From a virus, in the UHGV virus genome UHGV-1354558: DNA of 39,910 bases; one strand, given 5' to 3'. Under the pieces are notes generated by a model that did not search any database, had not been told where the DNA came from, and saw only the letters and a list, made by a program, of their open reading frames with translations. Positions 32,894 to 34,867 of the stretch are shown here, piece by piece. Position numbers and translations under genes: made by a program. How positions within the stretch are numbered: position 1 is the first letter of the stretch; each line of letters opens with the position of its first letter.

Positions 32894-34319
32894 TTTTTAT
32901 GCGCCGCCCCATAGCATCGAGGCAGAGCAGGCGGTGATTGGTGGATTGCTTCTGGATGATGACAGCAGTGAGCGCGTCCAGAAGGTTCTTGCGATGCTGA
33001 AGCCTGATTCATTTTACGGCCGACCACACAAAATCCTTTTCGAAGAAATAACCAGAATGCACCGGGAGCAAAAGCCAGTAGATGGCCTGACGCTTTTCGA
33101 TGAACTGGAGCGTAAATCGTTAACGGCGTCTGTTGGCGGTTTTGCTTATATCGCTGAGATCGCAAAGAACACGCCAAGCGCAGCAAACATCGTTGCCTAT
33201 GCAATGCAGGTTCGTGAAACCGCAATGGAACGCTACGCCATCAACCGCATGACTGAAGCGACGGAATTGCTCTATTCCCGCAACGGAATGACTGCAACGC
33301 AGAAGTACGAAGCTATTCAGGCGATTTTCACGCAACTGACAGACCATGCAAAAACCGGATCGCGTCGCGGCCTTCGCTCATTTGGTGAGGTCATGGAAGA
33401 CTGGGTTAGCGACCTTGAGAAGCGATTTGATCCATCAGGCGAACAACGGGGAATGAGCACAGGGATCCCATCGCTGGACAGGATGCTGTCACCGAAAGGT
33501 CTGGTGAAAGGCTCTCTGTTTGTCATTGGCGCTCGCCCTAAGATGGGGAAAACGACGCTATACAGCCAGATGGCAATCAATTGCGCAGTGCATGAGAAAA
33601 AGCCCGCTTTGATGTTCAGCCTTGAAATGCCAGGTGATCAGATACTGGAAAAACTGGTAGGGCAGAAGTCTGGTGTTAACCCGAATATTTTTTACCTTCC
33701 GGCGACAAATGACGCTGATGACGGCTATCAGGGTGATTACGATGGTGACTTCAACAGGGCGATCGAAACAGCTAATCGCTTGAGTGAAATCGACATGCTT
33801 TACATCGACGACACGCCGGGATTATCTCTGGCTCAAATCGTCAGCGAAAGCCGTCGAATCAAGCGAGAAAAAGGATGTGTTGGCATGATTCTGGTCGATT
33901 ACCTGACACTAATGACCGCTGAGAAGGCCGATCGCAACGACCTTGCTTACGGCATGATCACCAAAGGACTGAAGAACCTTGCCAAAGAGCTTGATTGCGT
34001 TGTTGTGCTTCTGACGCAGCTTAACCGCGCACTGGAAAGCCGAACCAATAAACGCCCATTACCAAGTGACTCACGAGATACAGGGCAGATTGAACAGGAT
34101 TGCGATTATTGGGTTGGGATCCATCGTGAAGGCGCTTTTGATGACAGTGTTCCACCTGGTGAAACCGAACTAATCCTTCGTCTCAATCGTCATGGCAATA
34201 CCGGCACGGTGTATTGCATTCAGGCAAATGGCGCTATTTATGACACAGACCAACAGTCTGCTGAAATGCGCCGCCGTGAACGCGAGGAACCGCAGTCCAA
34301 GAAGAAAGGAGGATTCTGA
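32883..34319 (+). CDS. DnaB-family replicative helicase (P22 gene 12-like)
   Basis: N-terminal DnaB-like domain and Walker A (GARPKMGKTTL). ATG overlaps the O-like stop; GAGGG upstream. Confidence 0.9.
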   Translation: MTDNFYAPPHSIEAEQAVIGGLLLDDDSSERVQKVLAMLKPDSFYGRPHKILFEEITRMHREQKPVDGLTLFDELERKSLTASVGGFAYIAEIAKNTPSAANIVAYAMQVRETAMERYAINRMTEATELLYSRNGMTATQKYEAIQAIFTQLTDHAKTGSRRGLRSFGEVMEDWVSDLEKRFDPSGEQRGMSTGIPSLDRMLSPKGLVKGSLFVIGARPKMGKTTLYSQMAINCAVHEKKPALMFSLEMPGDQILEKLVGQKSGVNPNIFYLPATNDADDGYQGDYDGDFNRAIETANRLSEIDMLYIDDTPGLSLAQIVSESRRIKREKGCVGMILVDYLTLMTAEKADRNDLAYGMITKGLKNLAKELDCVVVLLTQLNRALESRTNKRPLPSDSRDTGQIEQDCDYWVGIHREGAFDDSVPPGETELILRLNRHGNTGTVYCIQANGAIYDTDQQSAEMRRREREEPQSKKKGGF

Positions 34320-34588
34320 TGAATAAAAAACAATTAGCCATTCTCGAAAAGGCATGGGATGCACAAATATCATGCGCTTTGAAAGAACAGGCACTACCAA
34401 TAATCCAGACCAAATCGAAAATAGCCAGGCAGTTATGCGATGACGGATTCCTGAACGAAGTTGAGATTACGCGCCAGATGGTAACGTTCAAAGGGTATGA
34501 GATAAATCATCATGGTATAGCGGCGTATTGCTCCCATCTTCCTGATGACGTTGACATTGATGAAATGGAAAGGGAGATGAAGGAATGA
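34319..34588 (+). CDS. hypothetical protein
   Basis: 89-aa ORF coupled to the helicase stop. Confidence 0.5.
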   Translation: MNKKQLAILEKAWDAQISCALKEQALPIIQTKSKIARQLCDDGFLNEVEITRQMVTFKGYEINHHGIAAYCSHLPDDVDIDEMEREMKE

Positions 34589-34668
34589 CCATCTACATCA
34601 CTGAGCTAATAACAGGCCTGCTGGTAATCGCAGGCCTTTTTATTTGGGGGAGGGTAAATCGTGGTTGA
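34585..34668 (+). CDS. putative 27-aa single-TM peptide
   Basis: ATGA overlap with the upstream stop; MTIYITELITGLLVIAGLFIWGRVNRG. Found by manual translation; very short. Confidence 0.3.
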   Translation: MTIYITELITGLLVIAGLFIWGRVNRG

Positions 34669-34867
34669 GTTGATTTTCTCTGCATTGAGGCTTCTCGGTG
34701 CTCTGTGGATGGTGGCGACGTTCATTGTGGTTGCTGGCTGTTTTGTCCGGTTGGTAGGCGAAGGTAAAGACCTGGTGGGTGTGCTTTTCGGTAGCATTTT
34801 CCTGTGGGTGATTATCGGTGTTATGCCTGTCGCTGTAGCAAAAATAGCGTGGCGTTTTGTGAGTTGA
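34661..34867 (+). CDS. small two-TM membrane protein (GTG start)
   Basis: GGAGGG 6 nt upstream of the GTG; 68 aa with two hydrophobic helices. Confidence 0.45.
   Translation: MVELIFSALRLLGALWMVATFIVVAGCFVRLVGEGKDLVGVLFGSIFLWVIIGVMPVAVAKIAWRFVS

What the first reader, a model, noticed from the sequence alone, without database searches (positions are those of the whole stretch)
34319..34867. Translationally coupled cluster of tiny membrane peptides in the nin region
An 89-aa ORF is followed by a 27-aa single-TM peptide (ATGA overlap) and then a 68-aa two-TM protein (GTG start with a strong GGAGGG RBS). Small hydrophobic peptide pairs at this position could be a toxin-like or exclusion module. 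They are not part of the conserved nin set I recognise.
Basis: inference. Interest (0 to 1): 0.4.

Follow-up and report, generated by a model that had tools for sequence, protein, structure and literature searches.

The report
Lambda tR2 terminator misread as peptide
The "27-residue membrane peptide" is the long-known ninA reading frame that lies over the classic phage lambda tR2 transcription terminator, and its two neighbours are separate, already catalogued phage genes of unknown function, so this is ordinary lambdoid-phage architecture and not a new toxin or exclusion module.

Summary
All three ORFs exist exactly as described. They are not a dedicated cluster of membrane peptides.

- **Middle ORF (34585-34668).** This is ninA, a named ORF of the lambda, P22 and phage 21 nin regions. 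It contains the lambda tR2 Rho-independent terminator. The terminator sequence is identical to the oligonucleotide used in published tR2 experiments. The hydrophobic stretch GLLVIAGLFIW is simply the translation of the GC-rich stem and the T-tract.
- **How the block behaves.** The 68-bp ninA/tR2 block sits after many unrelated genes and before many others. The frame always starts on the upstream stop codon and ends on or next to the downstream start codon. Loci with a different hairpin keep a terminator but not the peptide.
- **orf89.** It is soluble and acidic, with a weakly winged-helix-like predicted fold, and it occupies the slot that ren has in lambda.
- **orf68.** It is a genuine, conserved two-TM protein, almost always the first gene after tR2, and its function is unknown.
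- **Assortment.** orf89 and orf68 assort independently: only 3 of 77 orf68 loci have orf89 upstream.
- **Known systems.** There is no match to any toxin, holin or defence profile.

Verdict: already known architecture, low interest.

The parts
32868..34319 (+). DnaB-like replicative helicase (context). Its stop, TGA 34317-34319, shares one base with the orf89 start.
   Evidence: Pfam DnaB_C 2.8e-60 and DnaB 1.2e-30.
34319..34588 (+). orf89: a soluble, acidic 89-aa protein (phrog_2239) with a predicted winged-helix-like fold. It occupies the slot that ren has in lambda. AGGAGG (34307-34312) lies 6 nt before its ATG.
   Evidence: phrog_2239 1e-62. 25 protein clusters down to 55% identity in Escherichia, Salmonella, Erwinia and Enterobacter. 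dN/dS 0.33 in frame, against 1.96 and 0.62 out of frame. AF2 pLDDT 91. Top fold hits are all PadR/MarR/RTP winged-helix proteins but are weak, E 0.01-0.3, TM about 0.5.
34585..34668 (+). ninA reading frame (27 codons). ATG overlaps the orf89 stop (ATGA) and TGA overlaps the orf68 start region. GGGAG (34572-34576) lies 8 nt before the ATG.
   Evidence: phrog_5907 1.3e-18. The equivalent ORF is annotated ninA/NinA in Nil2, HK630, P22 and phage 21. The NinA translation start is reported functional for lambda.
34585..34652 (+). Conserved 68-bp ninA/tR2 junction block. It holds the ninA 5' half, the terminator, and the start of the G-rich SD for the next gene.
   Evidence: In a sample of rows taken at even steps down the ranking, most hits cover only this stretch, behind ren, helicases, toprim or HNH genes. 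1,996 of 5,426 E. coli genomes match some part of the query. Found in 415 phage records. The homology block starts at the A of the ATG.
34614..34645 (+). Lambda tR2 Rho-independent terminator. Stem AGGCCTGC/GCAGGCCT (34614-34621 and 34630-34637), loop TGGTAATC, T-tract TTTTTATTT.
   Evidence: Terminator scan. Hairpin -15.7 kcal/mol. Identical to lambda 40.6 kb. Identical to the published tR2 oligo 'taacaggcctgctggtaatcgcaggcctttttatt'. Annotated 'tR2 terminator' in Nil2 and 'rho-independent terminator' in Emek.
34646..34654 (+). Shine-Dalgarno GGGGGAGGG for orf68. In lambda the same element serves ninB.
   Evidence: Read directly from the sequence.
34661..34867 (+). orf68: a conserved two-TM inner-membrane protein (phrog_1165), GTG start, first gene past tR2.
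   Evidence: phrog_1165 5.6e-35. 196 protein clusters, 114 of the 120 listed being exactly 68 aa. Distant relatives at 31-39% identity keep W16, W49, G53, K61 and W64. dN/dS 0.48 in frame, against 0.67 and 1.18 out of frame. Two hydrophobic peaks. AF2 helical hairpin, pLDDT 90. GTG start in 115 of 122 loci.
34885..35193 (+). orf102 (phrog_343). The next mosaic module, not part of the finding.
   Evidence: Homology to Stx2 phages stops exactly at 34867. A family with the constant N-terminus MDESRKQFEE often follows orf68.

Best explanation
The 549 bp are three independently exchangeable pieces of the early-right (pR) operon of a P22-like lambdoid phage. They lie between the replicative helicase and ninB.

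1. **orf89** is a soluble, acidic, probably winged-helix-like protein in the position where lambda has ren. Its function is unknown. That it is an analogue of Ren is inference only.

2. **The 68-bp ninA/tR2 block** is the classic lambda tR2 intrinsic terminator embedded in the short ninA reading frame.
   - The apparent transmembrane segment GLLVIAGLFIW is the translation of the GC-rich stem (GGC CTG CTG GTA ATC GCA GGC) and the T-tract (CTT TTT ATT TGG).
   - Unmodified RNA polymerase terminates here. The terminated RNA carries a ninA frame without a stop codon.
   - Polymerase modified by the phage antiterminator reads through.
   - ninA starts on the stop codon of whatever gene is upstream and stops on or next to the start codon of whatever gene is downstream. 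It therefore most likely serves as a translated bridge that hands ribosomes across the terminator to the next gene (inferred). A function for the peptide itself is not needed to explain the data.

3. **orf68** is a genuine, conserved two-TM inner-membrane protein. It is the first gene beyond tR2, so it should be made only after antitermination, during lytic growth. Its role is unknown. My best guess, with low confidence, is an early lytic membrane effector, for example blocking entry of superinfecting DNA or modulating a host membrane protein. I do not think it is half of a toxin pair.

**Shown:** the identity with tR2 and ninA, the independent assortment, the coding constraint on orf89 and orf68, and the two-TM architecture.

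**Inferred:** the bridge function, the timing of expression, and any activity of orf68 or orf89.
For: **Identity with tR2 and ninA.**
- Window 34610-34645 equals lambda between ren and ninB.
- It also equals the tR2 oligo used by Li et al., NAR 2016 (PMC4824070 supplement).
- GenBank records annotate the same bases both as a ninA CDS and as a tR2 terminator, as a terminator, and as ninA.
- Literature lists ninA among the lambda and P22 nin genes and describes the ATGA-linked chain of genes.
- Li et al. found the NinA start site 'not weak'. tR2 lies 30 bp after the AUG and 16 bp before the stop. tR2-terminated RNA is non-stop. Translation lowers termination by only about 10%.

**The terminator is what is selected.**
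- Every variant keeps a stable hairpin plus T-tract.
- Stem substitutions are G-U compatible, apart from changes to the closing C in three single loci, which still fold.
- Seven loci carry a different hairpin plus T-tract after the same 5' half, and these give a different peptide. The two alternative hairpins differ by a compensatory T-A to C-G pair.
- About 15 loci keep the hairpin, T-tract and SD without the ninA ATG or 5' half.

**Translation and the bridge.**
- Seven non-homologous upstream gene ends all supply a GGAG-type SD 6-9 nt before the ATG.
- The frame is open for 20-32 codons in all but one of 130 loci; in that locus it runs on into the downstream gene.
- It ends at -4, -8 or -14, or no more than 6 nt before, the start of 11 different downstream gene families.
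- Recurrent variants in codons 2-10 are 6 synonymous to 2 non-synonymous (P about 0.005-0.009).

**Independent modules.**
- Of 77 orf68 loci, 76 have tR2 directly upstream. The upstream gene is a helicase in 41, ren in 22 and orf89 in only 3.
- 75 orf89 loci are all followed by ninA/tR2. The next gene is orf68 in 19, ninB in 14, orf102 in 12 and something else in 30.

**Operon context.** A cI-like repressor, cII, replication genes, NinB, NinE, NinF, YbcO, RusA and Q.
Against: - Termination and read-through were not measured in this phage.
- The synonymous-biased variation and the exact ATG-bounded homology block could mean that the N-terminal half of the NinA peptide itself matters. The bridge idea does not require that.
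- The syn/nonsyn test rests on only 8-12 variable sites and uses no phylogeny.
- The trio orf89-ninA-orf68 does occur together in many Stx2a-converting phages, so co-function cannot be formally excluded.
- No function for orf68 or orf89 could be derived. Fold and profile searches were uninformative.
Confidence: 0.85

Rival explanations
1. One reading: NinA (27 aa) and orf68 are a co-acting pair of small membrane peptides, forming a toxin-like or superinfection-exclusion module, possibly regulated by orf89.
For: - Both products are hydrophobic.
- They overlap by 8 nt, and orf68 is preceded by ninA/tR2 in 76 of 77 loci.
- The ninA start is used in a reporter.
- The trio is common in Stx2a phages.
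Against: - ninA/tR2 precedes ninB and at least 9 other unrelated genes just as tightly, so the linkage is not specific to orf68.
- The hydrophobic half of NinA is replaced by another sequence wherever another terminator is used.
- An L-to-Q change sits in the 'TM' in 6 loci, and there are frameshifting T-run variants.
- There are no Hok/Ldr/TisB-type, holin, Imm or PADLOC matches.
- No promoter of its own that would allow expression in a lysogen was found. There is only one weak 9/12 match inside orf89, and the region as a whole has fewer promoter-like sites than its shuffles.
- The whole nin region, including ninA, is dispensable in lambda (literature cited).
Confidence: 0.06
2. The ninA frame is a pure by-product of the terminator and is not translated in the phage. 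The region between orf89 and orf68 is simply non-coding.
For: - PGAP and the lambda RefSeq record leave it unannotated.
- The peptide's C-terminal half is not conserved as protein.
- Some loci lack the ATG.
- A T-tract and a GC-rich stem read in this frame automatically encode hydrophobic residues.
Against: - SD motifs lie at the right spacing in 7 unrelated upstream contexts.
- The ATG is kept in 122 of the hairpin-anchored loci, and the homology starts exactly there.
- The frame is always open and closes on the next start in 11 gene families.
- Variation is synonymous-biased.
- The start is reported as active in a reporter.
Confidence: 0.08

Closest known systems
Phage lambda tR2 Rho-independent terminator with the overlapping ninA ORF (lambda, between ren at 40570 and ninB at 40644; also P22, phage 21, HK620/HK630, Nil2)
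   Same: The hairpin, loop, T-tract and following GGGGGAG are identical. The ninA N-terminus MTIYITELITGLLVIAGLFIWGR is the same. The ATGA junction with the upstream gene is the same. The position in the pR operon, between the replication genes and the nin genes, is the same.
   Different: Here the upstream gene is orf89 instead of ren, P or gene 12. The downstream gene is orf68 instead of ninB, so the tail is ...VNRG with an 8-nt overlap on a GTG start, where lambda has ...GKS with an ATGA overlap.
Lambda Ren and the Ren-like proteins that occupy the slot before tR2
   Same: Same genomic slot and similar size (89 against 96 aa). Both look winged-helix-like. A Ren homologue is annotated as a 'MarR family' regulator in phage Louie. 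orf89's top fold hits are PadR/MarR proteins.
   Different: There is no significant sequence relationship: hhalign probability is 0.3-3%. Fold matches are weak (E 0.01 or worse). The Ren phenotype was not tested.
Small phage inner-membrane proteins made early in lytic growth (for example T4 Imm), and type I toxins or holins
   Same: orf68 is small, forms a two-TM hairpin, and lies in an early operon.
   Different: There is no sequence or profile similarity to any of them. Structure search gives only generic helical hairpins with E above 1. This is a resemblance of size and topology only.
Leader-peptide attenuators (for example the trp leader)
   Same: A short translated ORF containing or abutting an intrinsic terminator. 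There is a sub-threshold Rfam Trp_leader hit at 34537-34643 (20.7 bits against a gathering score of 41).
   Different: No alternative antiterminator hairpin is evident. Translation of ninA changed tR2 efficiency by only about 10% in the published reporter. Read-through in lambdoid phages is due to N-type antitermination (established knowledge).

Membership tests
Lambda tR2 intrinsic terminator | GC-rich hairpin directly followed by a T/U-tract | tested here: met
   8-bp stem with 6 GC pairs, 8-nt loop, then TTTTTATTT. Hairpin energy -15.7 kcal/mol.
Lambda tR2 intrinsic terminator | Sequence identity with the characterised lambda tR2 | tested here: met
   Identical to the lambda genome. Identical to the tR2 oligo of PMC4824070. 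The same bases are annotated tR2 in AJ413274.
Lambda tR2 intrinsic terminator | Location in the pR operon between the replication genes and the nin genes | tested here: met
   cII, replication genes and helicase lie upstream. NinB, NinE, NinF, YbcO, RusA and Q lie downstream.
Lambda tR2 intrinsic terminator | Termination in vivo, relieved by the phage antiterminator | not testable with these tools
   Needs Term-seq, 3'-RACE or reporter assays in this phage.
ninA ORF of lambdoid nin regions | Short ORF starting at ATGA on the upstream stop and encoding MTIYITEL... | tested here: met
   phrog_5907 1.3e-18. Matches the annotated NinA of P22, phage 21, HK630 and Nil2.
ninA ORF of lambdoid nin regions | The frame ends on or next to the start codon of the following gene | tested here: met
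   8-nt overlap here. Offsets of -4, -8, -14 or no more than +6 in 11 downstream gene families.
ninA ORF of lambdoid nin regions | It is actually translated | not testable with these tools
   Reported for the lambda sequence in a reporter. Here the evidence is indirect only: SD motifs in 7 contexts and synonymous bias.
Type I toxin, holin or superinfection-immunity small membrane proteins | Match to a family profile (Hok/Gef, Ldr, TisB, holins, Imm, PADLOC models) | tested here: not met
   No Pfam, NCBIfam or PADLOC hit at E <= 0.1 for the 27-mer or orf68.
Type I toxin, holin or superinfection-immunity small membrane proteins | Co-inheritance of the partners as one module | tested here: not met
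   orf89, ninA/tR2 and orf68 assort independently.
Prophage-expressed exclusion gene (moron) | Own promoter and terminator allowing expression in the lysogen | tested here: inconclusive
   Only one weak 9/12 promoter-like site, inside orf89. The count of such sites is below the shuffle expectation (6 found against 7.5 expected). No terminator follows orf68. Consensus scans cannot exclude a promoter.
Winged-helix DNA-binding proteins (orf89) | Winged helix-turn-helix fold with significant structural similarity | tested here: inconclusive
   The model is confident (pLDDT 91). The best Foldseek hits are PadR, MarR and RTP, but with E 0.014-0.3 and TM about 0.5. None reaches E <= 0.001.
PHROG families 2239, 5907 and 1165 | Full-length profile match | tested here: met
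   1e-62, 1.3e-18 and 5.6e-35. All three families are labelled 'unknown function'.

The most novel reading that the evidence does not exclude
There are two readings that the data do not exclude.

(a) ninA is a deliberately translated micro-ORF. Its conserved N-terminal half and its passage through tR2 would form a functional device, either a ribosome hand-over across the terminator or a non-stop/tmRNA-linked control of the RNA that terminates at tR2.

(b) orf68 founds an uncharacterised family of early-lytic, two-TM membrane effectors, for example an Imm-like block to superinfecting DNA, restricted to enterobacterial lambdoid phages.
Probability: 0.15. Interest if true: 0.45.

Novelty: already known. 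Interest (0 to 1): 0.15.

Why it matters
The main value is as a caution. An intrinsic terminator read in frame gives a convincing-looking hydrophobic 'micropeptide', because the GC-rich stem encodes G, L, V and A and the T-tract encodes L, F and I. PHROGs even holds it as a protein family (phrog_5907).

The analysis also documents that the tR2/ninA block is a universal junction of lambdoid mosaic genomes. It always supplies a start on the upstream stop, a terminator, and an SD plus stop on the downstream start. That makes the idea of ninA as a translational bridge easy to test.

orf68 and orf89 remain function-unknown genes present in many Shiga-toxin phages, so assigning them a function would have modest practical interest.

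Tried and rejected
- **Profile searches.** Pfam, NCBIfam and PADLOC gave nothing for the 27-mer or orf68; orf89 gave only two weak, below-threshold hits (E about 0.02). PHROGs gave only 'unknown function' families.
- **Rfam.** Only a sub-threshold Trp_leader hit.
- **PDB sequence search with the orf89 profile.** One hit at E 0.13.
- **Foldseek for orf89** against PDB and BFVD. Only weak winged-helix hits.
- **Foldseek for orf68** against BFVD. Generic helical hairpins with E above 1.
- **hhalign of orf89 against lambda Ren and the Louie Ren-like protein.** Not significant.
- **phmmer of orf68 against 1.8 billion representatives.** A narrow family of 16 representatives, none linking it to a named family.
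- **Species-representative genome scan for the ninA 5' half.** Mostly lambda-DNA contamination, so of no use for diversity.
- **K-12 DLP12 check.** I asked whether its ren-emrE gap holds tR2. It does not.
- **Papers not held.** Liu et al. 2013 (lambda ribosome profiling) and Cheng, Court and Friedman 1995 could not be read.
- **Literature searches on orf68 and orf89.** Searches by accession number and PHROG id found nothing, and a topic search for small membrane proteins in lambdoid nin regions found nothing specific.
- **Minus-strand 134-aa ORF (34640-35044).** Rejected as a gene, because it spans two modules that assort independently.
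Full report
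**Observation**

- orf89 runs from 34319 to 34588.
- A 27-codon ORF runs from 34585 to 34668. Its ATG overlaps the orf89 stop as ATGA.
- A 68-codon ORF runs from 34661 to 34867 and starts at GTG. GGGGGAGGG ends 6 nt before that GTG.

Hydropathy and an AlphaFold2 model (pLDDT 90, helices 2-33 and 38-67) confirm that orf68 is a two-TM helical hairpin. The 27-mer has only a 15-residue hydrophobic run. orf89 is soluble and acidic.

The surrounding genes place the region in the early-right operon of a P22-like lambdoid phage. Upstream lie a cI-like repressor, cII, a replication protein and a DnaB-like helicase. Downstream lie NinB, NinE, NinF, YbcO, RusA and Q.

**What the middle ORF is**

A terminator scan finds AGGCCTGC-TGGTAATC-GCAGGCCT followed by TTTTTATTT at 34614-34645. 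This sequence is base-for-base the one between ren and ninB of phage lambda. It is also the 'TR2-cut' oligonucleotide used as the lambda tR2 terminator by Li et al., NAR 2016 (PMC4824070 supplement).

GenBank records annotate the same stretch in several ways.
- As a ninA CDS plus 'tR2 terminator' in phage Nil2.
- As a 'rho-independent terminator' lying between homologues of orf89 and orf68 in Salmonella phage Emek.
- As ninA/NinA in HK630, P22 and phage 21.

Genome papers list ninA among the lambda and P22 nin genes. They also describe the ATGA-linked chain of nin genes, citing Kroger and Hobom 1982 and Cheng et al. 1995. So the statement that these ORFs are outside the conserved nin set is wrong for the 27-mer.

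The hydrophobic core of the 27-mer is the translation of the stem (GGC CTG CTG GTA ATC GCA GGC gives GLLVIAG) and of the T-tract (CTT TTT ATT TGG gives LFIW).

**Is the terminator or the peptide selected?**

I collected about 150 viral contigs. Some were anchored on the exact hairpin and some on a degenerate ninA 5' pattern.

With the 5' anchor, the hairpin is almost invariant.
- Changes inside the stem are G-U compatible (GGC to GGT on either arm).
- Three single loci change the C that closes the stem, and these still fold.
- The loop tolerates T to A, which puts a Gln into the supposed TM segment in 6 loci.
- A few loci have T-run length changes that shift the frame.

Seven loci carry a different hairpin plus T-tract at the same place. 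The two forms are GGGGCTATT/TACAC/AGTAGCCC with T6, and GGGGCCACT/TACAC/AGTGGCC with T5. They differ by a compensatory T-A to C-G pair. They encode GAIYTVALFYWIK where the canonical block encodes GLLVIAGLFIWGR.

About 15 loci have the canonical hairpin, T-tract and SD without the ninA ATG or 5' half. The terminator is therefore the constrained element of the 3' half.

**Is ninA translated?**

Several observations say yes.
- The homology block begins exactly at the A of the ATG, and the three bases before it vary freely.
- Seven unrelated upstream gene ends (ren, orf89, two helicase types and three others) each supply a GGAG-type SD 6-9 nt upstream.
- The frame is open for 20-32 codons in all but one of 130 loci; in that locus it runs on into the downstream gene.
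- The frame ends at -4 (ATGA or GTGA), -8 or -14, or no more than 6 nt before, the start codon of 11 different downstream gene families.
- Recurrent substitutions in codons 2-10 are 6 synonymous to 2 conservative non-synonymous in the ninA frame (P about 0.005-0.009). The other two frames show no such bias. This test uses few sites and no phylogeny, so it is only suggestive.

Experimentally, Li et al. report that the NinA initiation site in the lambda sequence is 'not weak'. They report that RNA ended at tR2 is a non-stop message for this ORF. They also report that translation from it lowers termination by only about 10%.

The simplest reading is that ninA is a translated bridge. It lets ribosomes pass from the upstream gene across the terminator to the downstream gene once RNA polymerase has been antiterminated. 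That function is my inference. Whether the peptide does anything is unresolved.

**The flanking genes**

orf89 has these properties.
- It belongs to phrog_2239, labelled unknown function.
- It has 25 protein clusters down to 55% identity in Escherichia, Salmonella, Erwinia, Enterobacter and related genera.
- It has a strongly conserved core.
- Its dN/dS is 0.33 in frame.
- Its AF2 model is confident (pLDDT 91) and has the layout helix, helix, beta-hairpin, helix, helix.
- All of its top structural neighbours are PadR, MarR or RTP winged-helix proteins. None is significant: E is 0.014 or worse and TM about 0.5.
- It sits where ren sits in lambda. A Ren homologue in phage Louie is annotated as a MarR-family regulator.
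- orf89 shows no significant sequence relation to Ren.

orf68 has these properties.
- It belongs to phrog_1165, labelled unknown function.
- It has 196 protein clusters, nearly all of exactly 68 aa.
- It is a narrow family when searched against 1.8 billion representatives.
- Relatives at 31-39% identity keep W16, W49, G53, K61, W64 and a G-x-D-P/L loop.
- Its dN/dS is 0.48 in frame, against 0.67 and 1.18 out of frame.
- It starts with GTG in 115 of 122 loci.

Both orf89 and orf68 are therefore real genes. Neither has any hit in the toxin, holin, immunity or defence-system libraries.

**Not a module**

- Among 77 informative orf68 loci, tR2 lies directly upstream in 76. The gene before tR2 is a helicase in 41, ren in 22 and orf89 in only 3.
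- Among 75 orf89 loci, ninA/tR2 always follows. The next gene is then orf68 in 19, ninB in 14, orf102 in 12 and something else in 30.
- In complete E. coli genomes, 1,996 of 5,426 match some part of the 549 bp, but only 29 hold at least 80% of it. In an evenly spaced sample, most hits cover only window 34585-34652, behind ren, helicases, toprim or HNH genes.
- Homology to Stx2a-converting phages, which do carry the same trio, starts exactly at 34319 and stops exactly at 34867. This is typical of gene-boundary mosaic joints.
- No convincing promoter or terminator of its own flanks orf68. It should therefore be a delayed-early lytic gene that depends on read-through of tR2. That argues against a prophage-expressed exclusion function but not against an early-lytic one.

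**Verdict**

- The central 'peptide' is the known ninA/tR2 element.
- orf89 is not a membrane protein.
- orf68 is a catalogued but uncharacterised two-TM protein.
- The three do not form a co-inherited unit.

Novelty: already known. Interest: low (0.15). The residual open points are whether NinA translation has a role, and what orf68 does. Both are testable with the experiments listed under next steps.

Noticed in passing
L128-L146 (genome-contig hits): A degenerate pattern for the ninA 5' half hit 19 contigs. Most are about 48.4-kb or tiny, low-coverage contigs in assemblies of unrelated taxa (Pseudomonas, Shewanella, Oceanobacillus, Bradyrhizobium, Nocardioides and others). These are almost certainly lambda control-DNA contamination of those assemblies. 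Only the Escherichia albertii and Escherichia sp. hits look genuine.
   Followed up: no
L150, L157 and five other viral loci: The ninA 5' half is kept but tR2 is replaced by a different hairpin plus T-tract. The two versions differ by a compensatory T-A to C-G pair. In L157 the ninA frame runs on into the downstream gene.
   Followed up: partly
L013, L085, L113, L169, L173, L267: The canonical tR2 hairpin, T-tract and SD occur without the ninA ATG or 5' half. An A-rich run (AAAAAAAGATAAA) abuts the hairpin, which looks like a bidirectional terminator. The identity of the upstream gene was not determined.
   Followed up: partly
L329 (E. coli K-12 DLP12, NC_000913 568247-568315 and 572368-572469): The multidrug exporter gene emrE sits immediately after the ren homologue renD, in the same slot as orf68, but without tR2 in the gap. 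The 33-aa ylcH lies in a ninA-like position before ybcN and ends in a lambda-like GGAGGGGAAGCGTGA junction.
   Followed up: partly
window 34885-35193 and the loci: The gene after orf68 is often a family with a constant N-terminus MDESRKQFEE and a highly variable remainder, always 17 nt after the orf68 stop. This looks like another conserved junction sequence that extends into a coding region.
   Followed up: no
window 34537-34643: Sub-threshold Rfam Trp_leader match (20.7 bits, gathering score 41, E 0.35). It reflects only the short-ORF-plus-terminator layout.
   Followed up: no
window 35190-35402 and 36160-36429: Two further small nin-region ORFs (70 aa, phrog_18758; and 89 aa with no Pfam hit) have no assigned function. 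They are chained to their neighbours by overlapping stop and start codons, like the rest of the region.
   Followed up: no
L203 (IMGVR_UViG_2571042732_000001): This viral contig has exactly the window's length (39,910 bp), but its orf68 is only 94% identical to the window's. It may be a close relative or a differently permuted record. Not examined.
   Followed up: no
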